A stretch of 64,000 nucleotides of DNA from Naegleria gruberi. Lineage: Eukaryota. The stretch's first letter is position 1. Every line of letters starts with the position of its first letter. The position numbers were made by a program, and so were the translations under genes. The stretch lies in NCBI GenBank assembly GCA_000004985.1, contig GG738850.1; one strand, given 5' to 3'. This document shows, in pieces, positions 3,954 to 55,505 of the stretch. The notes below the pieces were generated by a model. The model was not told where the DNA came from, ran no database searches, and was given only the letters and a program-made list of their open reading frames with translations.

Positions 3954-3955
3954 AA

Positions 3956-8628: not shown

Positions 8629-9609
8629 TCAATAATAACCACTTCCATAAACCTTCTCCACAATGATGAGATTTTCCTTTTCATTTAAGGTTACACGCAT
8701 CTCATAGAAACTATATGGTGCACCAGCATTGAAAAAGATTGGAAACATTTGCTTATCATAATCTTCCCACGAGGATGAAGTTGATGATTGGCTTGTGTAA
8801 TGTCCATCCAAGTTTGAAAAATAGCAAAATGGTGTAATTTGCTGAGATAAATATTGTTCCAATTTGTCAGTTGATGTTTCCTCCTCTTCTTCTTCTGAAT
8901 CATCATCTGATGTTATAATATAAGGTGATACTCCATAAACAATCTTACTGTACTTGACATTACAATTCAATCTCTTTTTGAAGAATAACAAATCCAAACA
9001 TGAAAACCATTCATCTCCTTCACTAATCAAAATAATAAAACAAAATAATGAGAATGGTATTAAAATTTTGGCCTCTTTCACAATATCTGAATTATCATCC
9101 CAGAAACATTGATGTAAAATAACTTGATCTGTCACAGGATTAGGTCTGTATTCATCCGAAATTAAACTTGTCATAATCACAACCAATTTCATCAAGTTTT
9201 CTCTCCTCCGTATCTCAAAAAACTCTCCAACCAATGTATTCTTCAAGAGAGGAAAAGAAAATGTAAATACTTGTTCCAAACTCAGAGAATCTCCTTGAAC
9301 AATTGTAACATCTTCATTCCTCTCCTCCACTGATATAAATTTAGGAATGATCGAAAAGAGGTACTCTAAATAATCATAATGATCAGATAAACCTTCATCG
9401 GAATTTTGTAATTCAATTTCAATTTCAGGAAACATTGGATTCACAAAATCTTCCCATCTAAAATGTGTATTCAACAGGGCAGTCCACAATCCTAAATTTC
9501 CAAAGGCAGCCTCTCTCCAATACTTGCAAACGAGCATTTTACTATTCACCAAATCCTCCAATGGCAAGAATGAAAAAATCACCGACAATTCATCACGACA
9601 AGGAAACAT
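8629..9609 (-). CDS. F-box domain protein
   Basis: 326-aa ORF. The N-terminal F-box is LSVIFSFLPLEDLVNSKMLVCKYWREAAF, and there is an acidic DDDSEEEEEE stretch. The start is taken from the ORF track. Confidence 0.6.
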   Translation of the reverse strand: MFPCRDELSVIFSFLPLEDLVNSKMLVCKYWREAAFGNLGLWTALLNTHFRWEDFVNPMFPEIEIELQNSDEGLSDHYDYLEYLFSIIPKFISVEERNEDVTIVQGDSLSLEQVFTFSFPLLKNTLVGEFFEIRRRENLMKLVVIMTSLISDEYRPNPVTDQVILHQCFWDDNSDIVKEAKILIPFSLFCFIILISEGDEWFSCLDLLFFKKRLNCNVKYSKIVYGVSPYIITSDDDSEEEEEETSTDKLEQYLSQQITPFCYFSNLDGHYTSQSSTSSSWEDYDKQMFPIFFNAGAPYSFYEMRVTLNEKENLIIVEKVYGSGYY

Positions 9610-12777: not shown

Positions 12778-15249
12778 TCATCTTTTGATTTTATATTCTC
12801 CCCCGTCGCATTCCAGAACTTCTTCCTTTACAAGGATATTCAAGAATGAACTCAGTTCAGAAAGTGATTTGTCGAATGGAGGTAAAGGATCAAGAGCAAA
12901 CATTGCCAACATGTTATGAATTTTGGCAAGTGGCATGCTATCAAAGTTTTCAATCATATTAATGATAATATCTTGATAAACTCTGAGTTCTTCTTCTTGA
13001 CTTTGAGCAGTTGTCATCTCTTCCATGTTTTCATCTTCTCCTTGTTCAGTGGCGGCAGAAGTCAGACTATCCACTAATCTGTACGTCTTATTTCCCTCAT
13101 CTATAATAATTCCTCTCTTTACCCAAGTATTAATACGTTTTTGGAATGTTTTATCGTCAATCTTCATCATTTCCATTATTTCATCCATAGTCCAAACATT
13201 TCTATCAGAGAAGTGGAATAGAATAGATGCAGCAACAGGATGAATGTTGGTGAGCTCTAGCTCTTCACCTCCAATTTCAATATCAAAATCTATTGAACCC
13301 ATTTGCTTTTCCCATAATAATTTTCTAGGGGCCTTAATAGCATTATATTGATTTGCATATTCTTCCATTAATTGTTCAATAAATGGATGCAATAGGATTG
13401 TAGGCTTGTTTTCATCAGTCATCAATTGCTGTCCAGGAGGTGCACCTTGATTGAATACTACCTGAGGCCAATAATTCTTAGATAGCATGAACACACTTGG
13501 AATTTGGGAGTCTGCTTGAATTGAAATTTCAGCAATTTGACTGTTAGAAAGTTCAATGTAATCACTTCTATTTGCAAGTCTAGATTGAATGCCAGAGTTA
13601 AGGAATTTGGAATCGGAAATATCTTTCAGCATAATTTCACAATTTTGCATATTCTTATCACCAAACCTAATTTTCAACAATTCAGCCATCTTGGCTTCGT
13701 TATTGGTATCATAGGTTTCATTCTTCAAAAGTGACTCAGCCAGTATCATTCTATATTCATTAACAAATATTTCCTTATTTCCTCTGTACATTTCTATGAA
13801 TATTTTGATAATATCAGGTTTCTCCATTTTAGATTTAGATGAAGAAGGATGAATAGGTTTTGGATTCCAATTCTCACTTGCATCATCCGAATCGTAATCT
13901 AAACTGCTTTGTGGTTCTGAGGTCAACAATTCACGGTAAAGAGCAGAATCATTTTGTTCATCGGTCATTTCATTAATTATACATCTGACAGCATCTGGAC
14001 GTTTTTCACGTAAGTATTCCTTGATATGGAATGATACGCTTTCTAACGAAATCCCAGTTGGATCAATTATGAGAAGAGATTTGATTATTCTAATAAAAGC
14101 CATTATAATATTCTTGGTTTCTACACTCGCTAAAAGTAATCTAGATTTTACACCCTTACTTAGTTCTTTAACAAGCTCATTATGCATTCCACAATGATTT
14201 AAACAGTCCTTTAAATCCGTTATTGCTTGTTGGCTATTTGGGAAATCAATAACGATATCGAAAATTTGACTTATTCTAATCTTGGCTAAATTTTCAAACA
14301 CAAAATAATCAACCTGTGATTTAAGAGTATTGAACATTTCGTGAGAAGAATCGCCACAAAAATAAATTTCCATATACGAATAAATAATTTGTTCTTTCCA
14401 TTGTTGAATATAGGTCAATATTTCCTGTTCAAAGTCAGTTGTTGATACTTCTGTGATTTTCTCTTTGATGGCTGAAAACATGAATGCTATCCAACTGTTT
14501 GAACAAATTGAATTCATGAAATTAGCTCTAAGTAATCTTAATTTGTCACAAAATTGTCTAAAATTTGAAATAATGTCTTCCATCTCCTGAGACGATTCTC
14601 CTGATTCAATACTTGTCGAAAAAGCATTAAAAGTCTCTCTAAAGTATTGTACCATAATTTCTGAGATATTCCCTTTGATTAAATACTCTCTTTGGTCGAT
14701 ATTCAACTTGTAAAATAGAGCTGATTGCACAAATACTATAAATTGTTCTCTCAGTCTCTCTTTAATTTCCAAACAGTTTTCTAATGTCGAAAATACAATT
14801 AAATATCGTTCTGTTATATTACAAATCATATGTACAGCCTGTACCAATGAATTAATATCCGAAATACTATTAAATATTGATACATGATTCTTAATAAAAT
14901 GTTGTCTCATATTTTGAATATATGGTTCAACAATTTGAGTTTTATCCATCACATTCCTCTCTGCCAACAATTTAATTTGCTGAAAACAAATTCCATTCGG
15001 ATTTTCCAACAATTCTGCACAATGAGCTGCATTAATTGCAATAGTTTTTAATAATTCCTGATGACCATCTAGCAACCAATTACTTTTTAAACTAGTCGAT
15101 TCCGAACCCGAACCAGAACCTCCAACACTATATATTTCTTGTTGTTCTTTTTGTATGGATAATGATGATGCTGAGGAACAAGCCTTGTTTAAATTCCCAA
15201 CAGCATTCCAACTTTGCACTTGTTGTGCAAGAATTAAATTGTTCATCAT
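12778..15249 (-). CDS. anapc2: Anaphase-promoting complex subunit 2 (APC2, cullin-homology subunit)
   Basis: 823-aa ORF with ATG at 15249-15247. The cullin-homology signature is ...MAELLKIRFGDKNMQNCEIMLKDISDSKFLN..., matching the ANAPC2 motif LKLRFGE..CEVMLKDMADSRR. A C-terminal winged-helix-like tail follows. Confidence 0.65.
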   Translation of the reverse strand: MMNNLILAQQVQSWNAVGNLNKACSSASSLSIQKEQQEIYSVGGSGSGSESTSLKSNWLLDGHQELLKTIAINAAHCAELLENPNGICFQQIKLLAERNVMDKTQIVEPYIQNMRQHFIKNHVSIFNSISDINSLVQAVHMICNITERYLIVFSTLENCLEIKERLREQFIVFVQSALFYKLNIDQREYLIKGNISEIMVQYFRETFNAFSTSIESGESSQEMEDIISNFRQFCDKLRLLRANFMNSICSNSWIAFMFSAIKEKITEVSTTDFEQEILTYIQQWKEQIIYSYMEIYFCGDSSHEMFNTLKSQVDYFVFENLAKIRISQIFDIVIDFPNSQQAITDLKDCLNHCGMHNELVKELSKGVKSRLLLASVETKNIIMAFIRIIKSLLIIDPTGISLESVSFHIKEYLREKRPDAVRCIINEMTDEQNDSALYRELLTSEPQSSLDYDSDDASENWNPKPIHPSSSKSKMEKPDIIKIFIEMYRGNKEIFVNEYRMILAESLLKNETYDTNNEAKMAELLKIRFGDKNMQNCEIMLKDISDSKFLNSGIQSRLANRSDYIELSNSQIAEISIQADSQIPSVFMLSKNYWPQVVFNQGAPPGQQLMTDENKPTILLHPFIEQLMEEYANQYNAIKAPRKLLWEKQMGSIDFDIEIGGEELELTNIHPVAASILFHFSDRNVWTMDEIMEMMKIDDKTFQKRINTWVKRGIIIDEGNKTYRLVDSLTSAATEQGEDENMEEMTTAQSQEEELRVYQDIIINMIENFDSMPLAKIHNMLAMFALDPLPPFDKSLSELSSFLNILVKEEVLECDGGEYKIKR

Positions 15250-18495: not shown

Positions 18496-19413
18496 ATGTC
18501 ACCAAAGCTTTTCAAAGATTTTGACACTTGTCACGTGTTTAGGTTTTTAAATTTTAAAGAATTATGTAAAATATCACTTGTTTGTAAGAAATGGTTTATT
18601 ACAAGTCGATCGGATTTATTGTGGAAACAACTTTATAGATTTTATCAAATTGATGTTTTTTGTAATCAACCACAAGAATTAAATCAAGTTAAATGTTCAA
18701 TCATTTCGGATTTTACTCTCATGAATATAATGTTGAGATTGGAAAATTTATCAATAGCGGCACATTCAACATCATGTTGTGCTGAAATTTCAGTACCAAT
18801 TTATTATATTGCCATGTTGAAACCTAAAAAACAATTTAAATTGATTTTTGCTTCGGAATATTCATTTTCACGTACATTTGTCAAGTATGTGAATGTGAGT
18901 TTGGATTCAAAATCAATATTTATGCAATATAATCATGACAAATTTCATAATAATTTATTCGAGTTGATTTGTGAACATTATGTGAAGAAAATTATGAAGA
19001 GAATGAAACCTGAAGTTTTTACAGATTTGATAAGGAGTGAAGATATTTCGGATAATAACATTTTGATTAGTAAGAATGAATTTGTGTTTGCCATTTCAAT
19101 TCCATCAATTTATTCGATTTGTTATTGTTTATTTAATGTTCAGACAAGACAATGCTATCATGTTATTACAAGTAATATGTATCCCTATCAATATGCTATT
19201 CGATTTGTACTATTATTACAAGCTCAGTGTAGAGATTCACTTTCAGAATTTGATTTTAATAAGAATTTAACGAAGACAGTAGAGCATTTATTTTCAATTT
19301 TTGAGTTGAACAGGAATAGTGAAGGTCAATTTAAGATTGGGGTTGATAATAATGAACTTTATGAACCAATAACATTTGAAGATATGCATGTAATTGATAT
19401 TAGTGAAATTTAA
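18496..19413 (+). CDS. F-box domain protein
   Basis: 305-aa ORF with ATG at 18496. The F-box is FRFLNFKELCKISLVCKKWFITSRSDLLWKQLY. The stop TAA is at 19411-19413. Confidence 0.6.
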   Translation: MSPKLFKDFDTCHVFRFLNFKELCKISLVCKKWFITSRSDLLWKQLYRFYQIDVFCNQPQELNQVKCSIISDFTLMNIMLRLENLSIAAHSTSCCAEISVPIYYIAMLKPKKQFKLIFASEYSFSRTFVKYVNVSLDSKSIFMQYNHDKFHNNLFELICEHYVKKIMKRMKPEVFTDLIRSEDISDNNILISKNEFVFAISIPSIYSICYCLFNVQTRQCYHVITSNMYPYQYAIRFVLLLQAQCRDSLSEFDFNKNLTKTVEHLFSIFELNRNSEGQFKIGVDNNELYEPITFEDMHVIDISEI

Positions 19414-20896: not shown

Positions 20897-22918
20897 TTAA
20901 GGTAATTCTTTCAATAGTGATTGAATAAGTGTTTTAAAATATGATATTGATCTATCCATTTGAGTATCAATGGAGAGAGGTGTTTCATTTCGGAGTAAGT
21001 TGAGAGTGTTCAGAGAAACAAGTTCTCTATGAATGGAAGTGTAAAGTTTGCAATAGGATACATCCTTTGTTAGATGAGCCAATTTGTAACACAATTGTTG
21101 GCTCTTGTGTAAACAAAATGATTTCAGATAGTGTGATAAGGATACTTTCAAATCATCCACTCTATTGTGTTTTAATCCACGTAATTCATGATAATAGGCA
21201 ATATCAGTTTTAGATCCATGAGTGAGAATATGTGAAGAATTAGTCAGATAATCAACATCCTTGTATAAATATAATAATAATCTGTTTTTGTGAGTTTCAA
21301 AATGATTCTTTTCACAGAAATCAATAGCTTTCAATAAATAAGGAAGAATTAGGGCAGTGGTTTCTTCATTCTTTAACAGCTCACAATTTGTTAAATATAC
21401 AGTTACTAGCTGGATAAAATTGAATTCTGTTGATGATTGAAAACAGAGTTTCATCTTTGTGACAGACTCGTGTATGTTATTGTCAAGATGATAGGCTATT
21501 AAAGATTCCAAATATAATAAATCACATGTATCTATTACCAGTGTATTATCCATGATATTTTTGTATTGATTCATTAGTAAATTTACATTTTCTCTATCTC
21601 TCAACTCAATAAAGTGAGTAATAAGCAATCGGTAACATGAACTATCTGATGTTGGAATAGACCTCGAAGATAGTAATTCATAGTCGCTATATAAATCGAG
21701 ACTGGACTTGGTATAACCAATAGAAGATGTTTGATTCTTGATTGAAAGTCTATTGTGACAACTATACAACATCTTATCTCCAATAAGTCTGTAGAAATGA
21801 GCTTTGACATTGGTTAATAATGATTTTGGAAATATTTCAGTTAACAACAAAGGTTTAGATTGATCATAAAGATCCAATGAGTTTTGTTGTTGTAATTGTT
21901 CACATTTACGAATTAAAGAATATATTTGTTGGCAGGCTATTTGATTGTTGAAACCTGTCAGTAACTTGAATTGAATAAAATCCAAAGTAATATAGAATAA
22001 AATAGAAGTGTTATGACTTTGAGCAAACTTGAGTGCCTGAAGAATGAATAATTCAACATTCGAAGATTGATTATGGAAATATTCAATCATTTTGATTTTG
22101 TACAATATTATAAAAGAAAGCAATAGGCAATCATGCTCATTGTTTTGTTGAGATATTTTGATACTTTCCTTTAAAGAGATAGTAGCTTGTTTGTAATATT
22201 TAAAATGATAGTACAGAAGTGCCTTATTCAGTGCCGAATATGATCTATTTTGGAAATAATCATAATAGATATGTACATAGAAATTAGCATTAATAAAATC
22301 CAATTCTCTACAGCTCTGTATATAATTATTATAATAAAGTTTCGGAAATATTTTACTAACACCAATAGGGCTAGTTTTTTTCATACTTCTATTAGAATTA
22401 CTCTCAATAGAATCATTATTTAGCAGCAAAACTTGGGAGTGATTAGATTTAAATCTATTAATACTATCATATAAAGTTTTAACTCCATCAAAAAGTAAAT
22501 TATTAAATAATAAAATAATTTTCCTGAGAAATATTCCATAAATTGAAGTTTTGTTTGCATCAATAGATTTCAATGTATCAAATAATGTTAATAATGCATC
22601 AACACTGTCAATGGTATTGTAAAGTGCGAAAAATCTTGGTATTACTTCGGAATTAATATTTGTTAATTCCGCAATAAATTTATGTATATTTCCATATATT
22701 GGTGTTACTTTATGTTGTATACAATCAATAATAAACTTGTTTACTCCTTCCAAATTTAAATTCTTACATGATACATCCTGAGTAATACTAATTAAAATTG
22801 CTGTACAAATATCATGAGGTGTAATCTTATTGATGGAATATTCTAATAATACTGATGATGGAAGTGAAGGATTGTTTGATGGTATTATTGCTTGTTGATG
22901 CGTTGCAATACCACTCAT
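20897..22918 (-). CDS. anapc5: Anaphase-promoting complex subunit 5 (APC5)
   Basis: 673-aa ORF. The N-terminal block ITPHDICTAILISI...SIYGIFLRKIILLFNNLLFDGVKTLYDSINRF parallels human ANAPC5 (VTPYKIAVLVLL...SVVGLFLRHMILAYSKLSFSQVFKLYTALQQYF). The rest is helical and TPR-like. Confidence 0.55.
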   Translation of the reverse strand: MSGIATHQQAIIPSNNPSLPSSVLLEYSINKITPHDICTAILISITQDVSCKNLNLEGVNKFIIDCIQHKVTPIYGNIHKFIAELTNINSEVIPRFFALYNTIDSVDALLTLFDTLKSIDANKTSIYGIFLRKIILLFNNLLFDGVKTLYDSINRFKSNHSQVLLLNNDSIESNSNRSMKKTSPIGVSKIFPKLYYNNYIQSCRELDFINANFYVHIYYDYFQNRSYSALNKALLYYHFKYYKQATISLKESIKISQQNNEHDCLLLSFIILYKIKMIEYFHNQSSNVELFILQALKFAQSHNTSILFYITLDFIQFKLLTGFNNQIACQQIYSLIRKCEQLQQQNSLDLYDQSKPLLLTEIFPKSLLTNVKAHFYRLIGDKMLYSCHNRLSIKNQTSSIGYTKSSLDLYSDYELLSSRSIPTSDSSCYRLLITHFIELRDRENVNLLMNQYKNIMDNTLVIDTCDLLYLESLIAYHLDNNIHESVTKMKLCFQSSTEFNFIQLVTVYLTNCELLKNEETTALILPYLLKAIDFCEKNHFETHKNRLLLYLYKDVDYLTNSSHILTHGSKTDIAYYHELRGLKHNRVDDLKVSLSHYLKSFCLHKSQQLCYKLAHLTKDVSYCKLYTSIHRELVSLNTLNLLRNETPLSIDTQMDRSISYFKTLIQSLLKELP

Positions 22919-25099: not shown

Positions 25100-27341
25100 T
25101 TATGGATTCAGTAATTTACTGAAAAATCCATTGTACTTTTTCACAGCAACTTTTGCAGATTTTTCTCCTTGTTCAGCTAATTTTCTAATCTTTGATATGG
25201 CAGATTGAATTCCAGCATCTGCTGCCTTTTCATAGTAGTGACAAGCTTTGGCTAAATCACGTGGAACATAATTTCCCTCTTCATACATAATTCCAAGCCA
25301 TGCATTTGCATTGATATTGCCACCACTAGCACTCCTGGAAAAGTATTTGAATGCCAATTCTTTATCCACTTTAGTTCCAATGCCCATCAAATGAATTCTT
25401 CCCATATCACACATGGCTGTCATATTTCCATTAGATGCACTCTGTTCATACCAATATTTTGCAGAATCATCATTTTTTACAACACTTCCACAACCATTTT
25501 TAAAGAAATAGGCAACATGTAGTTGACTTTCATGAAATCCTAATTTTGCTGATTTCTGGAAATATTCAAAAGCTTTATCAACATCTTTCTTAACTCCAGT
25601 ACCATTTTCGTACATTAATCCTAATCTATTAAGAGCCCACGGAGTATTACTCTCCAAATAATATTCTGATAAAATTAATTACAATAGATTAATTTTCAAT
25701 AAACTTACTAATAGCATTTCTATAGTTTTGTTTCACACCATACCCATGTTCATGCATTGCTCCTAACAGAAAAGTGGCATTTGAATTGCTATTGTTTGTC
25801 ATTTCAAAATTGCAGCAGTCTAATAATCTCTTGAGATCCTTCTTGTCTGAATAATATTTCAACAAGTGAATGATATTTTGCATGGAATTGAAATCAAAGT
25901 TTCTATGTGTGGTGAAAATTTCAAACATTAATTGAAATGCTTCCTTATAGTTTTTACAATCCATGGCAAGAATAGCTTTTCTCTCACTTTCAGCAATAAA
26001 AGTTTCTGCTCTATCAGAGCTTTTCATTATTAATGGATTGGATAATATGCTTTCGTAGGAAGGTCTTGAGAGAGGATCCTTTGCCAACATTTTGAGCAAT
26101 AGGTCAATAATGGAGCTATCACATTTTGCTAATTTCAACGAGTTTTCAATTTCTTCCATGGAAATGTTAGCACATCTAGAACGTAAATCAAAGGTTAACA
26201 ACTGATAAACAGATACTCCAATTGCAAAGATATCACTCTTAATAGAATAGGGAAGAACCCTCTCATTAGACGAAAGTATTTCAGGTGCTAGGTATTGTTC
26301 CGTTCCAGCCAAACTCAAAGAAGTTAAACTATCTGATATAACAGTACTTCCACCAAAATCCGCAAGTACAATTTCAATCCGATTTCCAATAGGATCAAAC
26401 TTTCTTAGTAGGATATTCAAAGGTTTAATATCTCGATGCACAATTATTCCTCTTTTCTGTTGATTGAAATAATGTAAAGCAGCACACAACTGATAAATAC
26501 ATTGGAATATCATTTCATTGGAAAGAGGTATCTTTTTTTCAATAATGGCCTTTTTCATGCTTCCTAGCTCCATATATTCCATTACAATACAAAATACATC
26601 AAATAATGTAAACATTTCATAAACTTTGATCGAATAATTGTGACTGAACACTATTGTCTTGGTTCCTTCATTAAAATCCATCGTCCCCTCAATACAAGTA
26701 ACTGGAACAACTTTGATTGCTACAATTTTAGAGTCCAACTTTCGAGTTGCTTTAAAAACTTTTCCAAAAGCACCTTCTCCAATTATACTCATCTCTGAAT
26801 ATTGATTCAATAGTACTGAGAGAATTTCACTAGCTCTAGTACTCTTCAAACCCACGATAAGTTCATCATAATTCGAATCAATTGAAGTAGAAACAACAGG
26901 TGCTTCATCATGATGACTTGATTGATTCGTACTATTTTCAGTAGTATTATTATTCGAAAGACTATTTTCCCTACTATCGGTTGATGTACTACTACCACTA
27001 TTACTACTAACAGTACTTTTAGTACTTGTAATACTGCTATTGTTAGTAGAAGTATTGGAAGTGTTACTATTAATTTTCTTTTCATTACTTTCGAATACTA
27101 CTTCAACAATCAGTGGATGATCTAGTTGAGTACTAAATGTCTTCATCATGTTTCTTACATCTGTATCATTTCTGAGTGTAATTAATAAATTTGCCGTTGG
27201 ATGTTTATATTTCAAAAAGAAGTGAATTTCATTTGATGATGAGAGAAGATCTAGCACTTGACTTGTTATGAATTCCAATGTTGAACATTCGTCCAGAAAG
27301 AGGAGAATATTATGAGATAAACACTGAACAATACATTGCAT
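25100..27341 (-). CDS. Ser/Thr protein kinase with C-terminal Sel1-like (TPR-like) repeats
   Basis: Exons on the minus strand are 27341..25709 and 25665..25100, with a 43-nt GTAAGT..CAG intron. Kinase motifs are GEGAFGKVFKA, VAIKVV, HRDIKPLNILL, DFG and APE. The Sel1-like repeats are GYGVKQNYRNAISKFI.., NRLGLMYENGTGVKKDVDKAFEYFQKSAKLG and WLGIMYEEGNYVPRDLAKACHYYEKAADAG. Confidence 0.65.
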
Positions 27342-31508: not shown

Positions 31509-31865
31509 ATGGAGCCATTTTTTTTATCAATGCTCCTGTCGAATGGAATTCTCATGTCAATATTTATTTGTTCCATTGAAAATTCATTAACTACACGTGT
31601 AAAAAACACTGCAAAACCATTTAAAAATTATTTGTAAATTTCAAATTTTCATGTCTGCTGCTTGTCCAAGGAAATTGAGATGTTTCAATCATATAGGAAT
31701 TAAGCGAAATATAGACCCAGCGTGAGAACTCTAGAATACACAATATAACATTCGAATAATAGATCAATGACACAAGCAATCTGTCTCAACACTACTTCCG
31801 TCTTTTTAGAGAAAAAGTCGTTTTTTGAGGTTTCCACAGTGAAAGAGAGATTAACTTTCAAAAAA

Positions 31866-34800
31866 ATGCCATCAGTCAAACACATCAGATTTTATCTTCC
31901 TTTGGTATTAGTTTTCTTTCTTTTCGTAACCAGTATCAACTTCAAATAATCTCTTTACCAGAAGTCTTTCTAATATTTCTTTTACTCAACCGGTTACAGA
32001 CCCTTCACCTCTCGGATGTCAAATTGTTCCACAACCAAATTTTCTCTCACTACAAGTGGCATCAATTTTCATATCTTCTATTCGTGGTAATGATTATTTA
32101 ACACAATCATTGAATAATTCATCATCATTAATTAGTAATAAGTGTAATTTCATCAATAATCCATGTCACTCAATTTCACATGCCTTGTCTCAGTTGAGTA
32201 ACACAACATGTGTAATTAATCCTTGTACTGGATATGTATTATTTTTATTGGATGATTTATTGGATGATGAAGCAAAGAGTTGTAATTTGGAAATTCCAAC
32301 TTCAATTCCAATCATGTTTTATGGAGTTGGTTCAAGTAAAAATTGGAAGTGTGTTTCGAATAGCATATTTAAAGAAGGAAATAATGTATTGTATCAGGGA
32401 TTCTTTATCTCAAATGTGAAAATTAGTGGAAATTTCAATTTACGAGTTTGTTTATTGTATTTTGTAAATTCAATTGCATTTAATTTTAGATTTTCCAACA
32501 AGTATTTCTTGTAAGTTTCGTTTTTTATTTCTTTTAAAATATAATTGGAATAGTACAATATTTTTTCACACTTCACAACTATTAGAAAGTGTAATTGAAG
32601 AAACAAGTCAAGACATAACTTATTGGAATATAATGAGATATAGTTCTTTATCATTTCTTAGTTCTACAGTTAACAAAACTAAAATTAAGTCCTATGCTAA
32701 AGTTAGTTTTTCCTCATCTAATGTCACTAGCACTGAAAGCACGACAATACTAGCAACGAGCATGTTTCTCGATTCCTATGTAATTCCATTTGCTTTAGTT
32801 TTTGACTCGTTATTGGAAAGCTCAAGCTTTACGTTTGAGTGGAAAACTGCATCATGTATTACATATGACAAACAACCACAATTTGGATTTTTTAATTCAA
32901 AGCTCATTAATTCAAAGATTTTTTCATTCAATTTTGGAAGATTAGTTTTGGATAATAATTTATTTACAGGTACGAGTCAAATTCTATTAAGAAACAGTAT
33001 TCCTTGTGACAAGGCAATAGATGTCACAAGAAATGTATTTGAAAGTCTTCCTGACCTTTCTACATTATTAATACAGGATACGATTGCAATTTTGCTATTT
33101 TCTGGAAATTCAATTAGAAATTTTAATGTAGCTTTTGGATTATTTCATTTTAATACCTTAGCAGTGGTTAAATTTGAAAATAATATTGTTACTGGAATGA
33201 TTATGCCACAAATTGCTCTAACAAATTCTGGACTATTTACATTCGAAAAAATTAACAATATTGCTACTTTTAATAATACTTTTATTGGTAATGTAGGATA
33301 TTATGGATCGTACTATTTTAAAGAATGTGGAAATATTTTGATTATGAATGACAAGTTTTCAAATAATAAGGCAATTATTGGAGGAGCTATTTATGATTCC
33401 AATAATGGTTTTGGTAGATCGGTCAATGTTACAAATTCAATATTTTCCAACAATTATGCAAGTTATGGAGGTGTTATTGGAACAAGTTTAGTGAATGTAA
33501 ATCTCTATTTCACTGGAAATACATTCGAAAATAATAGAGCCAAGTGGGGAGGAGCTATTTTAGCTGATATACCACCTTATTTTATGGATGGAATGTTACA
33601 ATCTAATCAATTTGTAAATAATACTATTGAATTTCAATCAGAAGAAAATAATATTGCTGGTAATCCTATATTTACTCTACTTTCACCTAATGGTACTCTA
33701 TTCTTATATCCAGGAGAATTGATTAATATAGAAGGAAGAGTAACAGACCTCTATGACAAGGTAATACCTTATAATTCAGATTTTAAAATTGATATTACTG
33801 CATCACAACCAAATGTAATGATATATAGTAGTGTGATTGCAAATCAGTTGACTAGTAAATCATTTAATATTTATTGGAAATATGGATTAGTAGGAGCTGA
33901 AACTGTTAATGCATTCTCTCAGTTTAATTTAACAATTTCAACTCGAATTCTGGATAAATCAACTTTTGGAAGAGTTATTGTAATGGTTAAGGAATGTCCA
34001 TCTGGATTCTCATTCATGAATGGTTATTTACTTGGAAATACCAATTCAAATCTATTCGAATGTTCACCCATTCCTCTAATTATGTCTCTGTCTATAGTTG
34101 GATCTTCCTTATTATTTGGATTCATTACTGTAGGAGTTCTGTGGTTGTGTATTAAAATCTATACCTCTATAAAACCATATAGAACAGCCAAGCAACAAAC
34201 CATGATGGTTCTTTCCATGCAAAAACCTCAAAATGAAATAGCAAAGAAAGTGAAAATATTCGATCAAGAATTGGAAACTAAATTAAGCAGATTATTAATG
34301 AATGCAGAAAATTATACTGTTTTGAAAAGTAATGATATGGTGGAAGTTGTTTCATTCACTTCTAATTGGGAGAAATATGTTTTAAAGATTGACAAATCTC
34401 AGAGAAGAGAAGTTCGATTGAATGAGGAATATTCTGCAGTACCGTAAGTAGTTGTTATTTTGATTTAACCTTTGATTTTGAAAGAGTTGAATTGGTTGAT
34501 ACGAATGAGGCAAAACAATTTATTGCGAATGCAGAGTATTACTTTGTTATTCCTGGTGATAATAATGAGAAAACAAGATTTTTGGGAATTGATATCAAAA
34601 ACAGATCTGTTTTTCATCCTTGTTTGATATTTAGAGGTGCAGATTTTGATCTATCTCACTATTTGTCTGTTTTTGGTCATTTTAGTAAGAGAATTGAAGA
34701 AAAAATTGATATTTTACAACAAATTGTAAGTAATATTTCTCAACCAATTGATTACTAACGTCTCGTAGGTAAAACCAATGAAATGGCTTCATTCCAATAA

Positions 34801-35464
34801 CATATTCCATCGCGATTTGAAACCTGCAAATATTTTTGTTTGGTGGGATGTTGGAAAGAAGCCAATTTTAAAAATTGGTGATTTTGGAGCTAGTAGCAGT
34901 AATTATGTTTTAGAAGGAACATATCCATATATAGCTCCTGAACTAATTAATGAAAATGATTTGAATGAATTAAGCATTTATCATTCTCGTATGGAGTGGT
35001 TTGCTCCTGCAGATGTTTATTCATTCTCAGTCATAATGTGGGACGTATTATTTGAGGACAATTCAAGATTTATCAGACATTTCAGAATGAAAAAGTATTC
35101 CAATGATGATTTCTCCATTAACATGCCAACATTGGAGATGTTACTAGAATATTGTGAAAAGGAAAATAGATTTGAACTCAACCCAAAGATAGAATTAGCC
35201 AAACAATTGGAAAATTATTTGGAAATATTCAAGAGATGTAACAGTGAGGATCCAACAAAAAGACCAACGTTTGAATTTATTGAAAAGGCATTGAATGGAG
35301 AGGTAGAGAATTGGAATTCCTATCCAACCTATTCTAGAATTAAGGAATCAATAGATGTTGACTCGTCCCATTATTATCATCGTGACAATGGTTCGAACTC
35401 TAATTTTGTTAAAATTGGATCAGATAATGAGGAGTTAATTGAAACTGAGTATACCAGATATTAA
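31866..35464 (+). CDS. Receptor-like protein kinase: a signal peptide, a large ectodomain of right-handed beta-helix (PbH1-like, GGAI-repeat) units, one TM helix and an atypical cytoplasmic kinase domain
   Basis: Five exons: 31866..31932, 32000..32510, 32554..34443, 34485..34725 and 34769..35464. Introns are 67, 43, 41 and 43 nt; the last contains TACTAAC at 34754-34760. The signal peptide is MPSVKHIRFYLPLVLVFFLFVT. Ectodomain repeats include NNKAIIGGAIYDSNNGFG, SIFSNNYASYGGVIGTS and NTFENNRAKWGGAIL. The TM is IMSLSIVGSSLLFGFITVGVLWLCIKIY. The kinase C-lobe has HSNNIFHRDLKPANIF, KIGDFGAS and YIAPE, but no obvious Gly-rich loop. The exon 1 donor (GTATCA) is non-consensus and uncertain. Confidence 0.6.
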
Positions 35465-35610
35465 GCTTATAAAATGTCTGACTTGATCTGTGAAGTTCCT
35501 TCAAATTATTATAAACGTGAGAATTAGCCTTAAATACAAGGGTATTTTCATGCTCAATAAGGTGGCCCACGCATATTAAGTTTAAGGGTTATTGAAAATT
35601 ATTGAATGTA

Positions 35611-35683
35611 GCCCGTCTAGCTCAGTCGGTAGAGCGCAAGGCTCTTAACCTTGTGGTCGTGGGTTCGACCCCCACGGTGGGCG
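35611..35683 (+). tRNA. tRNA-Lys (anticodon CTT)
   Basis: The 73-nt sequence GCCCGTCTAGCTCAGTCGGTAGAGCGCAAGGCTCTTAACCTTGTGGTCGTGGGTTCGACCCCCACGGTGGGCG folds as a cloverleaf with a 7-bp acceptor stem (two G-U pairs). The D-loop is AGTCGGTA, the anticodon loop is CTCTTAA and the T-arm is GTGGGTTCGACCCCCAC. It is nearly identical to eukaryotic cytosolic tRNA-Lys(CUU). No encoded CCA and no intron. Confidence 0.85.
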
Positions 35684-50862: not shown

Positions 50863-53800
50863 ATGTCTCAACCAAGTCCTGTAAGTGATTGTATAATTTG
50901 AATCAATTGTTGTATTAATGATGATCGGATTCAATAAAGAGAAATCAAGATACAATTTCTAGTTCAATCATTTTGACAATTATTGGAGAAGGAGAATTTA
51001 AAGTAATAATTGATGATCGTTCTTTTTTAAATGAATTTAATCAATCACAACCACAACCACAACAACAACAACAACAATTATCATCATCAATAAATGAAGA
51101 TGAAAAGAAAAAGAAGAGAAAATCATTTTCTCAATCATTTTCAGAATCATTTACTCAAGTTTTACATCAAACTACTTCTGGAATTACAAAAGGATTATCA
51201 ACTTTTACTTTTAAAACGAGACATGTTCAATTGAGAACAAATGAATTATTAATTTATGCTGTTAAAGGTTTGTTTTAATATTTGTTTTTAATAATAATTA
51301 AATATTTTATTACAATGAATTACAATAAAAAAATAGATAATTCCAAAAATAGAAAATTAAAAGCTAACATTTCACTTATCAAGGCAATAGTTAGTAAAGA
51401 TACACTTTACAAAAATTGTATTCGTATTGAAACTCAAGATAAAATTGTTCATATTCAAATAGATTCAGAAGATACAAGACAAAAATGGTTAAAATCAATT
51501 ACAGAACAAACACAAATTCTATCGAAAAGAAAAGAAGAAAATATAATTGCATCACTCTCTTCAAATTCTTTAATTTCATTAGACAATGAATATACTATTA
51601 ATAATATTAATAGTGGTGGTAGTAGTGAACAATTATTTAATAACAAATCATTGAGAGGTTCAATTGTTGATAGAGAACATGAGGAAACAAGTGAAATGAT
51701 TCAAAATTTTATTAATGAACTAAATAATTTGGATCCTAAAAAGTATTTTAATCCTGCATCAAATTTAAGTTCAAATCCTTCATCTTCTAAAAGACGTCAC
51801 AACAAGTTGAAAAGTTTAACTGAAATTTCAGGATTAAATAATGATTCACTTCATGGTATTAAATTTACTAAAAATGATGATTCTAATAATAATAATAGTG
51901 GTAATAATACTAATAATAAGAATAATGGTGAAAATAATGAACAAGATAATGGTATTTTAAAAGATAATGATCAAGATTTAAATAATCATGTTAAAGATCA
52001 ATTATCAATTTTAACAAGTGAATTTTCACATTTGAATAATTTTACATTTATAGGTGGATTAGCCCATTTAACTTTAATTGGTAATAGAATTATGGAAAAG
52101 GCATCTATTCAAGTTAATACTCAATCAATTTTAAACATGTCAGGTGGTTCACAAATATTAAAACAAGGTTACTTATTAAAAGCAGGTCCAAATTCACATC
52201 AACCATGGAAGAAACGTTATTGTGTTTTAACTGAATCATGTGAATTTAGATATATGAGTAAAATTGGTCAATCACCAAAAGGTTTATTTTCATTACAAGG
52301 TACTTGGGCATCACGTATTAATAGTAATGATATTGATGATAATGATGATATTGATATTAACAATGATATTAAGAATAATACTAATAATAATACTATTACA
52401 AATAATTCAAATAATAATAATAATAATACAAGTATAGATTCAGATACAAATCATAATGATGAAAATTTCAATGAACAATTTTTAAATATTCATTCAAATT
52501 CATATCAATTTCAAATTGAAACAAGTGAAAGAATTTATAAATTTCAAGCACCTTCTTATCAATCTTTAAAAAGTTGGTTAAATTCACTTGAACAAGTTGG
52601 TTGTAAAGTTAAAATTGATGAAAATGATGGAATTGTAAAAACAGGTTATTTAATGAAAGAGAGAACAACTAATCATTGGAATAAGAGATTTATAACACTG
52701 ACGGAATCTAATGAATTAAAATATTATGGAAAAAACAAATCAAATCGTTCCTTAAAAGGTACTATTCAACTTGAAGATTCTTATATTACTAAAATTATTG
52801 AAAAATATGAACAACAAAATATTGTAACAAGTACAATTGAATCTTTAACTGATACTATTATGTTAACTAATCATCATACTTTCAATAATAATTCTAATAA
52901 TACTAATAATAATAATAATAATAGTAATAATGGTAATAATAATAATTATATTATGAAATATAAATTTAAAATTCATACACCTGAGAGAAATCACATATTT
53001 GAAGCTGAAAATGAAATGGAACTTGATCATTGGATTCAAATAATTTCCAAATATGGTTCAATTCAAAGAAATGAAAATGATCCAAAACCAATTTTTAAAA
53101 ATCGTCTCGCCAAATACTATCTCAAAACAACAGAACAAGTTATTTTGGAAAGACAAGAAAAGCTACAGGAATACATTGTTAGTGAAGATAGTTTGAGAAG
53201 TAAATTGGAGAGAAATAAGAATAATGCTTCATTTAGATTAAATAATTCAAGTTTTCTTAGTAGTAATAATACTAGTTCAATTAGTATTCATTCAAATAAT
53301 GTTTCAACCAATGCCATGAATAATGGAGGTGGTGATAATAATCAACATCATCAATTATTAACAGTTCAAACAGCAACTGGAAATTATAGAAAACAACGTA
53401 ATAGTAGAGCTTATTCTAAATCTGAAACAAGTTTATTGAATCATCATTATAATCAAACAAAGAGTTTATTGAATTTGAAACCAGGTGAAACACCTCCACC
53501 ACCAACAAGTCCAACATTTTCTCTATTATCATCAATTTCACATAATGATGAACATAATCATTCTAATCATTTAATATCACCTTCATCACCTTCATTGAAT
53601 GTTTCATTGATTGCACATGTTCCAGAGGATGAATTTATTTCAGATGATGAAATTGATGAAAATCTTGATATTCAAGTATTGAAAATTGAACCAATTGAAA
53701 AATACATTCCAAATACTAATAATAATACTAATAATACCACTATCACTACCACTACTACTACTAATAATAATAATAGCAGTGAACAACAAGTGGTTGTTAA

Positions 53801-55505
53801 TACTACTGCTGTTGAATTACAACAACCATCAATTGTTATTGAAAATAGTGATGATGATAAACAATTAATTGTAAATAATGAAAAAGTACCTTTACAATCA
53901 TTAACAGTATACTCACATAATAATATTGGTGTTAGTGATTCATCAGATGAATTCCAAATTATTGTTGAAGATTTAACAATGAATGAACATGAAATTGAAA
54001 CTATTAATAATATTGATAATACTGATAATATGAGTGATAATATTTCAAATAGATCTTTATCTCAACAATATTTAACTAATGATGATGATATGAATGATAT
54101 GAATGATAATCAACCATCTCAACAATATGATTCAACAAGTGAATTATTAGTGAATCAAAAAACTCATCAACATGATTCAATTGATATTCAAATTGAACCA
54201 CCATTAAATGATGAACATTCCAATGAAATGGAAATTGATTATTCCTATAATACATCAAATCCAATTCAAAGTCAAGGATATTATACTAGTTATCAAATAA
54301 TACCCAACTTGAAACCATCTATTGTAATAGATAATGGATCAGGTATATTAAAATCAGGATTTGCTAATCAAGATTTTCCAATTTGTGTTTTTAATAACAT
54401 GATTGGTCGATTGAAACAATATTCAGCAACGAGAGGTGTTGGAATTGGAGGAATGAGTGGAATGGGTGGAATTGGAGATCAAGGTAAAAAATTATATTTT
54501 GGAGATGGAGCTCAATCATTGAGAGGTGTTTTACAATTATCATATCCAGTTGAAAGAGGAATTGTAAAGAATTTTGATGATTTTGAAATGATGTTACAAT
54601 ATACTCAAGATTGTTTAAAATTGGAAACATTTAGTGAAAATCCATTATTAATAACTGAATCAACAATTAATCCAAAACAAAATAGAGAAAGAATTACACA
54701 AATGATGTTTGAAACATTTGATGTACCATATCTATATATGGCTAAATCACCTGTTTTATCTTTATTTGCACATGGTTATACAACTGGTTTAGTTTTAGAT
54801 TCAGGTGATGGTGTTACACATACTGTTCCAATTTATGAAGGTTATTCTTTACCACATGCTGTTCAAAGATTAGAACTTGCAGGTAAAGATTTAACAAATT
54901 ACATGTTAAATTTATTGAATCAATCTGGTCAATCAAAACCATTTCAATCTCAAAATTCTTCATCTCATATTGAAATTGTTAGATGTTTAAAAGAAGATTT
55001 ATCTTTTGTTAAATCATTTAATGATTCACATAATTCATCATCATCAAATACTATTAACAATAATAATTCTTCATCATTACAAGTTAATTATGATTTACCA
55101 GATGGTACAAGTATTAAAGTTGGAGAGGAAAGATTTAAATGTCCAGAATTATTATTTAATCCATCAATTGTTAATGGAGGAAGTGAAATGTTGGGAGTTC
55201 ATGAATTATGTAAAAAAACAATTTATGAATGTGATATTGATTTGAGAAAGACTTTGGCTTCAAATATTTTCCTTTCAGGTGGTTCAACTAAATTTAATGG
55301 ATTTCAATCAAGATTACAAGATGAAATACAAAATTTATTACCTTATTCTAATAAGGTTAAAGTTAAAGGTTCGAAAGATGTTCAATTTTTACCATGGATT
55401 GGTGGTTCAATCATTTCAAAGATTTCACGTTTCCCTTACGATTGTATTAGTAGACAAGAATATGAAGAAACAGGTCCATATTATTGTCATGTTAAATTTA
55501 TGTAA
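50863..55505 (+). CDS. Protein of about 1500 aa with three PH domains, long Asn-rich linkers and a C-terminal actin-fold (actin/Arp-like) domain
   Basis: Exons are 50863..50880 (MSQPSP), 50940..51267 and 51337..55505. Introns are 59 nt (GTAAGT..AATAAAG) and 69 nt (GTTTGT..AAATAG). PH domain 1 is split by intron 2 (GEGEFKVII…LSTFTFKTRHVQLRTNELLIYAVK|…LIKAIVSKDTLYKNCIRIETQDKIVHIQIDSEDTRQKWLKSI). PH 2 is LKQGYLLKAGPNSHQPWKKRYCVLTESCEFRYMSK…SWLNSLEQ. PH 3 is KTGYLMKERTTNHWNKRFITLTESNELKYYGKN…ELDHWIQIISKYG. The C-terminal 390 aa are actin-like: IVIDNGSGILKSGFAN, LDSGDGVTHTVPIYEGYSLPHAVQRLELAGKDLT, IKVGEERFKCPELLFNPS, FLSGGSTKFNGFQSRLQDEI and WIGGSIISKIS…ISRQEYEETGP. Confidence 0.6.

What the first reader, a model, noticed from the sequence alone, without database searches (positions are those of the whole stretch)
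31866..35464. Receptor-like kinase with a beta-helix (PbH1/GGAI-repeat) ectodomain and an atypical split kinase domain
A cleavable signal peptide is followed by about 600 aa of repeats of the form N.F..N.A..GGAI (at least five copies, such as NNKAIIGGAIYD, NNYASYGGVIGT and NNRAKWGGAIL). These are typical of right-handed parallel beta-helix adhesins or pectate-lyase folds, and resemble chlamydial Pmp GGAI repeats. One TM helix follows, then a kinase whose C-lobe is canonical (HRDLKPAN, DFG, APE). Its N-lobe lacks a GxGxxG loop and carries about 90 aa of insert, encoded by two mini-exons. This architecture is unusual for amoebozoan receptor kinases and the kinase may be a low-activity or pseudo-kinase.
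Basis: partly seen in the sequence, partly recalled or inferred. Interest (0 to 1): 0.55.

Follow-up and report, generated by a model that had tools for sequence, protein, structure and literature searches.

The report
Orphan beta-helix receptor kinase of an amoeboflagellate
This is an intact, evolutionarily constrained five-exon gene from a Naegleria/Willaertia-like amoeba (not an amoebozoan) that joins a bacterial-adhesin-like beta-helix outer domain to a protein kinase with a normal catalytic half and an unrecognisable, glycine-loop-less ATP-binding half; the domain combination is unusual, but it is still a receptor-like kinase.

Summary
The gene is real and sits exactly at 31866-35464 (+). 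Five exons join in frame to give 1134 aa. The order is a signal-peptide-like N-terminus, an ectodomain of about 675 aa, one TM helix (aa 699-729) and a kinase.

The kinase C-lobe is canonical (HRDLKPAN, DFG, APE). The N-lobe has no GxGxxG and no detectable similarity to any kinase N-lobe. The spacing fits a normal-sized N-lobe, with LKSNDMVEV in place of the Gly-loop, K804 as the candidate VAIK Lys and E840 as the candidate alphaC Glu. There is no 90-aa insert.

A 97.8%-identical metagenome contig diverges about 10% in the predicted introns and about 1% in the exons (dN/dS about 0.07). This supports the exon 3-4-5 splicing and purifying selection.

No ortholog was found among 1.84 billion protein clusters. 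The host is a heterolobosean, not an amoebozoan.

Verdict: a lineage-specific receptor-like kinase with a new domain combination. Interest is moderate.

The parts
31866..31932 (+). Exon 1: start codon and signal-peptide-like segment (aa 1-22, MPSVKHIRFYLPLVLVFFLFVT)
   Evidence: The A-rich context is AAAAAAATG. The only donor that joins this exon in frame to exon 2 is the non-consensus GTATCA at 31933, so this is the weakest junction in the model.
31933..31999 (+). Intron 1 (67 nt, GTATCA...TTACAG)
   Evidence: enumerated all GT/AG pairs. One donor is compatible, and two acceptors are possible (31999 or 32056). There is no independent support.
32000..32510 (+). Exon 2: ectodomain aa 23-192, Cys-rich N-terminal part (8 Cys), with no detectable homolog
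32511..32553 (+). Intron 2 (43 nt, GTAAGT...AATAG)
   Evidence: It has the same GTAAGT start and 41-63 nt size class as introns of other genes in the window.
32554..34443 (+). Exon 3: rest of the ectodomain (aa 193-697), the TM, the juxtamembrane segment and the first N-lobe strands (to aa 822), all in a single ORF
   Evidence: ORF 32474-34447 is continuous through the ectodomain, the TM and the start of the kinase.
33242..33664 (+). Confidently modelled beta-helix core (aa 423-563)
33341..33565 (+). Three canonical PMP-type rungs (FxxN...GG[AV]I; aa 456-480, 481-502, 512-530)
   Evidence: The rung HMM gives 16.5, 21.0 and 20.4 bits, against a maximum of 3.1 over 200 shuffles. Pfam Chlam_PMP scores 20.7 bits at aa 516-530. 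phmmer hits concentrate at aa 420-545.
34070..34162 (+). Transmembrane helix (aa 699-729), followed by the K/R-rich segment KIYTSIKPYRTAKQ
   Evidence: It has the highest Kyte-Doolittle windows in the protein. It is helical in both AF2 runs, though at low confidence.
34322..34348 (+). Position of the degenerate Gly-rich loop (LKSNDMVEV, aa 783-791)
   Evidence: This is an inference. A forced global hhalign and the spacing to K804 (13 aa, against 15 in P0124) place it here. No GxGxxG occurs in any frame.
34385..34387 (+). K804 (YVLKI), candidate beta3 'VAIK' lysine
   Evidence: This rests on the forced global alignment and on single-sequence AF2 strands at aa 779-784, 788-795 and 799-806 (low pLDDT). 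It is not statistically supported.
34444..34484 (+). Intron 3 (41 nt, GTAAGT...GAAAG)
   Evidence: It differs at 4 of 41 positions from the strain variant L001, while the flanking 63 nt of exon 3 show no differences.
34485..34725 (+). Exon 4 (aa 823-903): candidate alphaC (E840 in NAEYY), beta4-beta5, hinge and alphaD-alphaE
   Evidence: Three of the 4 substitutions against L001 are synonymous in this reading frame. The Pfam Pkinase match begins at aa 880.
34726..34768 (+). Intron 4 (43 nt, GTAAGT...TACTAAC...GTAG)
   Evidence: It shows 3 substitutions plus a 1-nt deletion against L001. An indel of that size would break the frame if this stretch were coding.
34769..35464 (+). Exon 5 (aa 904-1134): kinase C-lobe and C-terminal tail, with the TAA stop at 35462-35464
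   Evidence: Pfam Pkinase E 5.8e-20, 72.2 bits, aa 880-1073. PDB kinases match with E down to 3.5e-9. hhalign probability is 99.9 to a kinase profile.
34808..34831 (+). Catalytic loop HRDLKPAN (aa 917-924), Ser/Thr type
34880..34942 (+). Activation segment, DFG (941) to APE (959-961)

Best explanation
This is a native, spliced gene of a heterolobosean amoeba. It encodes a lineage-specific type-I transmembrane receptor-like Ser/Thr kinase.

SHOWN.
- Five exons give 1134 aa.
- The ectodomain contains a right-handed parallel beta-helix of at least ~140 and probably ~260 residues. It is built from three canonical and several degenerate PMP-type (FxxN/GGAI) rungs.
- There is one TM helix.
- The cytoplasmic domain has a canonical RD-type kinase C-lobe (HRDLKPAN, DFG, APE, and a DPxKRPTF-type subdomain XI).
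- The cytoplasmic part is under strong purifying selection.

INFERRED.
- The ~100 residues before the hinge form a very divergent but normally sized N-lobe. In it the Gly-rich loop is replaced by LKSNDMVEV, K804 is the beta3 lysine and E840 is the alphaC glutamate.
- The elongated beta-helix acts as a binding or adhesion surface, probably for a glycan or surface polymer on prey, substrate or other cells, as in other PMP-like surface proteins.
- Ligand-driven clustering brings the cytoplasmic domains together, and they then signal by Ser/Thr phosphorylation. Activity is probably weak or atypically regulated, because the phosphate-clamping loop is missing.
For: GENE MODEL.
- The exons join in frame.
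- The introns are of the same GTAAGT, 41-63 nt class as in other genes of the window.
- The variant contig L001 (97.8% nt identity) diverges 9.8% and 9.3% in introns 3 and 4, including a 1-nt indel, against 0-1.7% in the exons. Fisher p = 1.3e-5.

CONSTRAINT.
- There are 7 synonymous and 2 nonsynonymous changes over 189 and 804 sites, so dN/dS is about 0.07 with p = 2e-4.

ECTODOMAIN.
- An exhaustive phmmer search gave 122 hits, all to aa ~355-600. The best E is 7e-19, and the top hits examined carry Chlam_PMP, most of them together with Beta_helix.
- Pfam Chlam_PMP scores 20.7 bits against a cutoff of 20.6.
- The rung HMM recognises 3 rungs at 16-21 bits, against a shuffle maximum of 3.1.
- The AF2 core has pLDDT 80-96.
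- The profile of A2 hits rhombotarget A (E 2e-10) and a 3634-aa putative transmembrane protein in PDB entry 7w5z (E 1e-16).

TOPOLOGY.
- The only strong hydrophobic segments are aa 3-21 and aa 699-729.
- Cys residues number 13 in the ectodomain and 3 in the cytoplasmic part. N-x-S/T sequons number 10 and 3.

KINASE.
- Evidence comes from Pfam, PDB and hhalign.
- The forced alignment and the spacing are consistent with K804 and E840.
- HRD, catalytic Asn and DFG are all intact.

PRECEDENT.
- Published AlphaFold predictions place the FxxN/GGA motifs on the coils of a beta-helix in chlamydial Pmps (PMC11166332, PMC10715098).
- Trichomonad Pmp-like proteins are single-pass surface proteins that increase adhesion (PMC6701047).
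Against: - The N-lobe is not recognisable by any statistical test. phmmer against PDB with the N-lobe alone gives nothing kinase-like, and local hhalign gives probability 0.12. K804 and E840 therefore rest on a forced alignment and a low-confidence model.
- There is no Gly-rich loop at all, so catalysis is uncertain.
- Only about 140 ectodomain residues are modelled with confidence. The MSA used was itself made of beta-helix proteins, and Pfam Beta_helix (PF13229) does not hit the protein directly.
- About 540 ectodomain residues have no assignable fold.
- The signal-peptide exon depends on an atypical GTATCA donor.
- There is no transcript evidence, no ortholog and no ligand information. The function is inferred from architecture only.
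Confidence: 0.65

Rival explanations
1. Receptor-like pseudokinase. The architecture is the same, but the cytoplasmic domain no longer binds or turns over ATP. It would signal as a scaffold or allosteric partner, as many plant and animal receptor pseudokinases do.
For: - All three Gly-loop glycines are absent, and there are only 4 Gly between the TM and the HRD.
- The N-lobe is unalignable to any kinase.
- Purifying selection is equally compatible with a scaffolding role.
- Non-catalytic signalling by receptor-kinase pseudokinase domains is documented (abstract of PMC11259431).
Against: - HRD-Asp D919, catalytic-loop Asn N924 and DFG-Asp D941 are all retained, and APE with a normal activation segment is present. 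Pseudokinases usually lose at least one of these (general knowledge).
- A lysine in a VAIK-like context (YVLKI) sits at the expected spacing.
Confidence: 0.28
2. Two separate genes or a mis-joined model. An adhesin-like membrane protein would end in exon 3, and an independent small kinase-like ORF would start at the ATG at 34778.
For: - Prokaryote-style gene calling on the metagenome contig reports the 228-aa ORF as a separate protein.
- There is no transcript evidence.
Against: - The 228-aa ORF starts inside alphaE, 13 residues before the HRD, and would lack the whole N-lobe.
- Exon 3 continues 93 codons beyond the TM and stops exactly at a GTAAGT.
- Removing 41 and 43 nt restores a single frame.
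- The two short intervals diverge ten-fold faster than the flanking sequence and carry a 1-nt indel.
- Exon 4 changes are synonymous in the predicted frame.
- The same intron type occurs throughout the window.
Confidence: 0.03
3. A C-lobe-only kinase remnant fused to a novel, non-kinase membrane-proximal domain. Residues 730-880 would then not be a kinase N-lobe, and the protein would work by a mechanism unrelated to phosphotransfer.
For: No sequence method detects N-lobe similarity.
Against: - The length and spacing match an N-lobe: 13 aa from the beta2 Val to K804, and 115 aa from K804 to D919.
- Single-sequence AF2 predicts a helix followed by three strands where beta1-beta3 should be (low confidence).
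- Intact catalytic residues in the C-lobe would be pointless without an ATP site.
Confidence: 0.04

Closest known systems
Eukaryotic Pmp-like surface proteins, e.g. the Trichomonas vaginalis Pmp family (PMC6701047). Dictyostelid PMP-repeat proteins are among the hits here (Heterostelium album PPL_00044).
   Same: - FxxN/GGA[ILV] rungs lie in an N-terminal extracellular beta-helix.
- The bacterial autotransporter domain is replaced by a single C-terminal TM helix.
- The likely role is adhesion or binding.
   Different: - Trichomonad Pmps have many repeats and only a short cytoplasmic tail with endocytic motifs.
- This protein has three canonical repeats, large orphan flanking regions and a 405-aa cytoplasmic kinase domain.
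- None of the 122 PMP-like hits carries a domain resembling this kinase.
Chlamydial polymorphic membrane proteins (Pmp autotransporters; Pfam Chlam_PMP PF02415)
   Same: The repeat motif is the same, and it maps to coils of a right-handed beta-helix (PMC11166332, PMC10715098).
   Different: - There is no Pmp middle domain and no autotransporter beta-barrel (neither appears in the Pfam scan).
- This is a eukaryotic spliced gene.
- The protein is anchored by a TM helix.
- The repeats are few and degenerate.
Single-pass receptor-like Ser/Thr kinases of protists and plants (plant RLKs; Entamoeba transmembrane kinases - the latter recalled from general knowledge)
   Same: The layout is signal peptide, variable ectodomain, one TM and a cytoplasmic kinase. 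The C-lobe has a TKL-like subdomain XI (CxxxDPxKRPTF).
   Different: - No PMP/pectin-lyase-fold ectodomain was found in the receptor-kinase literature searched.
- The N-lobe lacks the Gly-rich loop and is unalignable.
- There are no close relatives. The best non-self kinase hit has E 1.2e-7 and 31% identity over the C-lobe.
Rhombotarget A (PDB 9cdu/9cdv) and other bacterial or archaeal PMP-repeat beta-helix proteins
   Different: It is a prokaryotic secreted or surface protein with no kinase. Similarity is confined to the repeat region.

Membership tests
Protein kinase superfamily (Pfam Pkinase PF00069) | Profile score above the Pfam gathering threshold | tested here: met
   72.2 bits against a cutoff of 31.7, E 5.8e-20, but only profile positions 86-256 (aa 880-1073) are matched. 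hhalign probability is 99.9 over alphaE to the end.
Protein kinase superfamily (Pfam Pkinase PF00069) | Catalytic loop HRD-Asp and Asn, DFG-Asp, APE | tested here: met
   HRDLKPAN at 917, DFG at 941, APE at 959.
Protein kinase superfamily (Pfam Pkinase PF00069) | Gly-rich loop GxGxxG in the N-lobe | tested here: not met
   There is no GxGxx[GAS] in the protein or in any forward frame of 34160-34810. The aligned position reads LKSNDMVEV.
Protein kinase superfamily (Pfam Pkinase PF00069) | Beta3 (VAIK) lysine and alphaC glutamate | tested here: inconclusive
   K804 and E840 fall on these positions only in a forced global alignment. Local methods give no significant N-lobe match.
Pseudokinase (operational definition: loss of the VAIK-Lys, HRD-Asp or DFG-Asp) | At least one of the three catalytic residues missing | tested here: inconclusive
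   HRD-Asp and DFG-Asp are present. The status of the lysine is uncertain. Loss of the Gly-loop alone does not define a pseudokinase.
Chlam_PMP repeat proteins (PF02415) | Repeat profile above the gathering score | tested here: met
   20.7 bits against a cutoff of 20.6, so marginal. It is backed by phmmer E 7e-19 to proteins rich in Chlam_PMP repeats and by three rungs at 16-21 bits against a rung HMM.
Chlamydial Pmp autotransporters | Pmp middle domain plus C-terminal autotransporter beta-barrel | tested here: not met
   Neither family appears in the Pfam scan at E<=1. The C-terminal half is a TM helix plus a kinase.
Right-handed parallel beta-helix / pectin-lyase fold | Sequence match to Pfam Beta_helix (PF13229) or NosD | tested here: not met
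   There is no such hit at E<=1 for the protein itself. Most of the top phmmer hits do carry PF13229.
Right-handed parallel beta-helix / pectin-lyase fold | Three-stranded coils stacking into a right-handed solenoid (structural match) | tested here: met
   SMART is not among the available libraries.
Type-I receptor-like kinase | Cleavable signal peptide, extracellular N-terminus, single TM, cytoplasmic kinase | tested here: inconclusive
   The hydropathy pattern, the positive-inside residues after the TM, and the Cys and sequon bias toward the N-terminal part all fit. SignalP and TMHMM were not available. The signal-peptide exon relies on a GTATCA donor.

The most novel reading that the evidence does not exclude
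This could be the first described example of a receptor class in which a PMP-type beta-helix adhesin module is wired directly to a kinase. That would give a bacterivorous amoeba a contact or prey-surface sensor. The constrained, Gly-loop-less kinase would bind nucleotide in a non-canonical way, making it a new atypical but active kinase N-lobe.
Probability: 0.12. Interest if true: 0.6.

Novelty: new variant of a known kind. Interest (0 to 1): 0.38.

Why it matters
Receptor-like kinases outside plants and animals are poorly charted, and Heterolobosea (Naegleria and relatives) are almost unexplored in this respect.

If the model holds, it shows that PMP-type beta-helix modules have been recruited as sensor domains of eukaryotic kinases. 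Until now these modules were known as adhesins of Chlamydia and, in Trichomonas, as adhesion-promoting surface proteins. The gene also provides a naturally Gly-loop-less kinase that keeps every C-lobe catalytic residue and is under purifying selection. That makes it a useful test case for what the Gly-rich loop is dispensable for.

It remains a single orphan gene with no functional data, so the immediate impact is modest.

Tried and rejected
- Word-indexed homolog search with the full 1134-aa protein: 8000 candidates, none significant. Candidates that merely share short words probably swamped the list.
- Exact look-ups of neighbouring ORFs in public assemblies: not on record.
- Single-sequence AF2 of exon 3: pLDDT 34, unusable except as a weak secondary-structure hint.
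- phmmer of the ectodomain against PDB: no hit even at E<=10.
- phmmer of the N-lobe against PDB: only chance hits to PabI-like proteins.
- Local hhalign of the N-lobe against a kinase N-lobe profile: probability 0.12.
- NCBIfam scan of the ectodomain: nothing significant. The best relevant hit is the AIDA-I/YfaL adhesin at E 0.017.
- JGI metagenome scans with exon 3 and with exon 5: no relatives.
- The afdb50 fold library was unavailable.
- Tandem-repeat search at the DNA level: the rungs are not recent DNA duplications.
- tblastn of the ectodomain against the window: no paralog nearby.
- Literature searches for PMP or beta-helix ectodomains combined with kinases found nothing relevant.
- I considered and rejected 'two genes', 'decaying pseudogene' (rejected because of dN/dS about 0.07) and 'recent horizontal transfer' (GC content like the neighbours, and spliceosomal introns). 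The prokaryotic top hits reflect a shared repeat motif, not ancestry.
Full report
**Observation and gene model**

The region was read directly.

No single ORF spans the region. Five segments join through GT..AG introns into one 3405-nt frame encoding 1134 aa:
- exon 1, 31866-31932
- exon 2, 32000-32510
- exon 3, 32554-34443
- exon 4, 34485-34725
- exon 5, 34769-35464

Three of the four donors are GTAAGT, and the introns measure 67, 43, 41 and 43 nt. The same GTAAGT introns of 41-63 nt link ORFs in at least eight other places in the window, so the model follows the local splicing pattern.

The weakest point is intron 1. An exhaustive enumeration shows that the only donor able to join the signal-peptide exon to exon 2 is a non-consensus GTATCA at 31933.

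**Independent support from a second strain**

A word-based search with the cytoplasmic domain recovered a 228-aa protein from an ENA metagenome assembly (ERZ929261). Its 1295-nt contig (L001) aligns to window 34381-35670 at 97.8% nucleotide identity.

The differences are very unevenly distributed:

| Segment | Differences |
|---|---|
| Intron 3 | 4 of 41 positions |
| Intron 4 | 4 of 43 positions, including a 1-nt deletion |
| 3' intergenic | about 8% |
| Exon 3 end | 0 of 63 |
| Exon 4 | 4 of 241 |
| Exon 5 | 5 of 696 |

- Intron versus exon divergence differs with Fisher p = 1.3e-5.
- Of the nine coding changes, seven are synonymous in the predicted frame and two are not (Q901K, P1042S).
- With 189 synonymous and 804 nonsynonymous sites, dN/dS is about 0.07 (p = 2e-4).

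This supports the exon 3-4-5 splicing and the reading frame of exon 4. It also shows that the kinase region, including its odd N-lobe, is under purifying selection. The 'two separate genes' refutation criterion is therefore not met. In addition, the last 504 ectodomain residues, the TM helix and 93 cytoplasmic residues lie in one uninterrupted ORF.

**Organism**

The window is gene-dense, about 30% GC, with few and short introns. It carries typical eukaryotic genes:
- APC2, APC5, SIR2, EDC4 and an Inturned-like longin domain
- RCC1 and F-box genes
- a PH-actin fusion

The APC2 ORF finds Willaertia magna as its best relative, at 53% identity and E 4e-247. Willaertia belongs to Heterolobosea, Discoba. 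Its proteins are not in the public collections searched.

**Ectodomain (aa 23-697)**

Only three GG[AV]I motifs exist, at aa 469, 498 and 525. Each is preceded by FxxN.
- They are far beyond chance. The shuffle mean is 0.05 for GG[AV][ILV] and 0.005 for the paired motif.
- A rung HMM built from 600 canonical rungs of database hits scores exactly three rungs, at 16.5, 21.0 and 20.4 bits. The best score over 200 shuffles is 3.1 bits.
- Neighbouring 24-33-aa segments from about aa 296 to 566 keep an 'h.h..N.F.gN' rhythm but are not individually significant.

Database evidence:
- Pfam reports Chlam_PMP just above threshold (20.7 against 20.6 bits) and no Beta_helix hit.
- An exhaustive phmmer search of exon 3 against 1.84 billion cluster representatives gave 122 hits with E<=1e-3 and none below 1e-30. 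All are confined to aa ~355-600.
- The best hits are archaeal, bacterial and metagenomic proteins full of Chlam_PMP and Beta_helix repeats. A few hits are dictyostelid proteins.
- None of the 122 hits contains a domain resembling this kinase.

So there is no ortholog of the ectodomain anywhere in that library. Residues 23-420 and 556-697 resemble nothing.

**Fold**

Single-sequence AF2 failed. With a 20-row alignment of the query (aa 194-697) and matched segments of the hits (A2), AF2 gave a mean pLDDT of 48.8. For aa 423-563, however, pLDDT was 80-96, with repeating three-strand coils.
- Foldseek against PDB found no hit at E<=1e-3, but every listed match is a beta-helix or beta-solenoid protein, nearly all of the right-handed pectin-lyase type. 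The best is rhombotarget A at E 8e-3.
- The A2 profile also hits rhombotarget A (E 2e-10) and a 3634-aa putative transmembrane protein in entry 7w5z (E 1e-16) by sequence. Papers that cite 7W5Z concern Tetrahymena respiratory complexes.

Published work places FxxN/GGA motifs on the coils of the Pmp beta-helix (PMC11166332, PMC10715098). The 'beta-helix ectodomain' reading is thus supported for about 140 residues with confidence and for about 260 residues plausibly. It is not supported for 600 residues. One caveat applies: the MSA consisted of beta-helix proteins.

**Topology**

The only strongly hydrophobic stretches are aa 3-21 and aa 699-729. The TM is followed by K/R-rich sequence. Thirteen of 16 Cys and 10 of 13 N-x-S/T sequons lie N-terminal to it. 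This fits a type-I orientation. Signal-peptide cleavage could not be tested.

**Kinase**

The C-lobe is well supported:
- Pfam Pkinase matches aa 880-1073 at 72 bits, but only from profile position 86 onward.
- PDB kinases (DCLK1, RAD53, ULK3, B-Raf, NEK7) match from alphaE onward with E down to about 1e-9.
- hhalign to a profile of the nearest database kinases gives probability 99.9, again for the C-lobe only.
- The catalytic loop HRDLKPAN and the GTxxYxAPE-type P+1 region are of the Ser/Thr type (established Hanks-Hunter motifs).
- Subdomain XI (CNSEDPTKRPTF) resembles TKL-like kinases.

The N-lobe is the unusual part:
- No GxGxx[GAS] exists in any frame between the TM and the HRD.
- Neither phmmer nor local hhalign detects N-lobe similarity.
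- A forced global alignment places LKSNDMVEV on the G-loop, K804 (YVLKI) on the VAIK lysine and E840 (NAEYY) on the alphaC glutamate.
- The spacing is normal: 13 aa from the beta2 Val to the Lys (15 in P0124), and 115 aa from the Lys to the HRD-Asp (107 in P0124).
- The low-confidence AF2 run predicts a helix followed by three strands at aa 764-806.

The 188 aa between the TM and the HRD are therefore best read as about 50 aa of juxtamembrane plus a roughly normal-sized, extremely divergent N-lobe. They are not a split kinase with a 90-aa insert. Exon 4 (80 aa) is the only small exon here, and it encodes alphaC through alphaE. Modest inserts do exist in the C-lobe, after APE and between alphaF and alphaG.

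**Mechanism (inference)**

The protein looks like a receptor-like kinase whose elongated beta-helix serves as a binding or adhesion surface. This would parallel chlamydial and trichomonad Pmp-like proteins, which promote adhesion (PMC6701047). Clustering would activate or juxtapose the cytoplasmic domains.

Retention of HRD-Asp, catalytic Asn and DFG-Asp, together with a candidate VAIK lysine and strong purifying selection, favours a catalytically competent but atypical kinase (about 0.65). A scaffolding pseudokinase is the main rival (about 0.28).

**Comparison and novelty**

It works like a single-pass receptor-like kinase and carries a PMP-type beta-helix. It is not a chlamydial Pmp autotransporter, because it has no middle domain and no beta-barrel. 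It differs from trichomonad Pmps by having a kinase instead of a short tail.

I found no PMP or beta-helix ectodomain linked to a kinase among the 122 sequence relatives or in the literature searched. I could not query InterPro architectures, so 'undescribed' is provisional. I rate it a new variant (a new domain combination and a Gly-loop-less N-lobe) of a known kind. Interest is moderate, at about 0.38.

Noticed in passing
window 35611-35683 (+): A tRNA-Lys(CUU) gene lies 146 nt downstream of the kinase stop codon. The 60 nt of it covered by the metagenome variant L001 are identical, while the spacer between the stop codon and the tRNA diverges about 8%.
   Followed up: partly
window 51282-55505 (+): A single 1407-aa ORF combines several PH domains (aa ~33-590) with a complete actin domain at the C-terminus (Pfam Actin E 5.8e-102, aa 1012-1406). 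PH-actin is an unusual fusion architecture.
   Followed up: no
window 25100-27341 (-): A soluble protein kinase with a full Pkinase match, including the N-lobe (E 1.7e-45), appears to continue through a 43-nt GTAAGT intron (25708-25666) into an ORF with four Sel1 repeats (E 2.7e-40). This looks like a kinase-Sel1 gene.
   Followed up: partly
L001 (ENA ERZ929261, run ERR1078381, project PRJEB11402) = window 34381-35670: A closely related strain or species of the source organism (97.8% nt identity) is present in a public metagenome. The sample could point to the organism's habitat.
   Followed up: partly
window 12778-15249 (-) and 20897-22918 (-): APC2 and APC5 subunits of the anaphase-promoting complex are encoded within 8 kb of each other. 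The APC2 ORF gave the taxonomic anchor (53% identity to Willaertia magna), and no Naegleria hit was returned.
   Followed up: partly
window 1656-5500, 8629-9609 and 18496-19413: There are two adjacent RCC1-repeat genes on opposite strands and two F-box genes. I recall (untested) that these families are expanded in Naegleria-like genomes.
   Followed up: no
window 31767-31865 (+): An upstream ATG at 31767 is in frame with the 31866 start. It would add 33 residues before the hydrophobic segment and turn the signal peptide into an internal signal or anchor. Which start is used is unknown.
   Followed up: no
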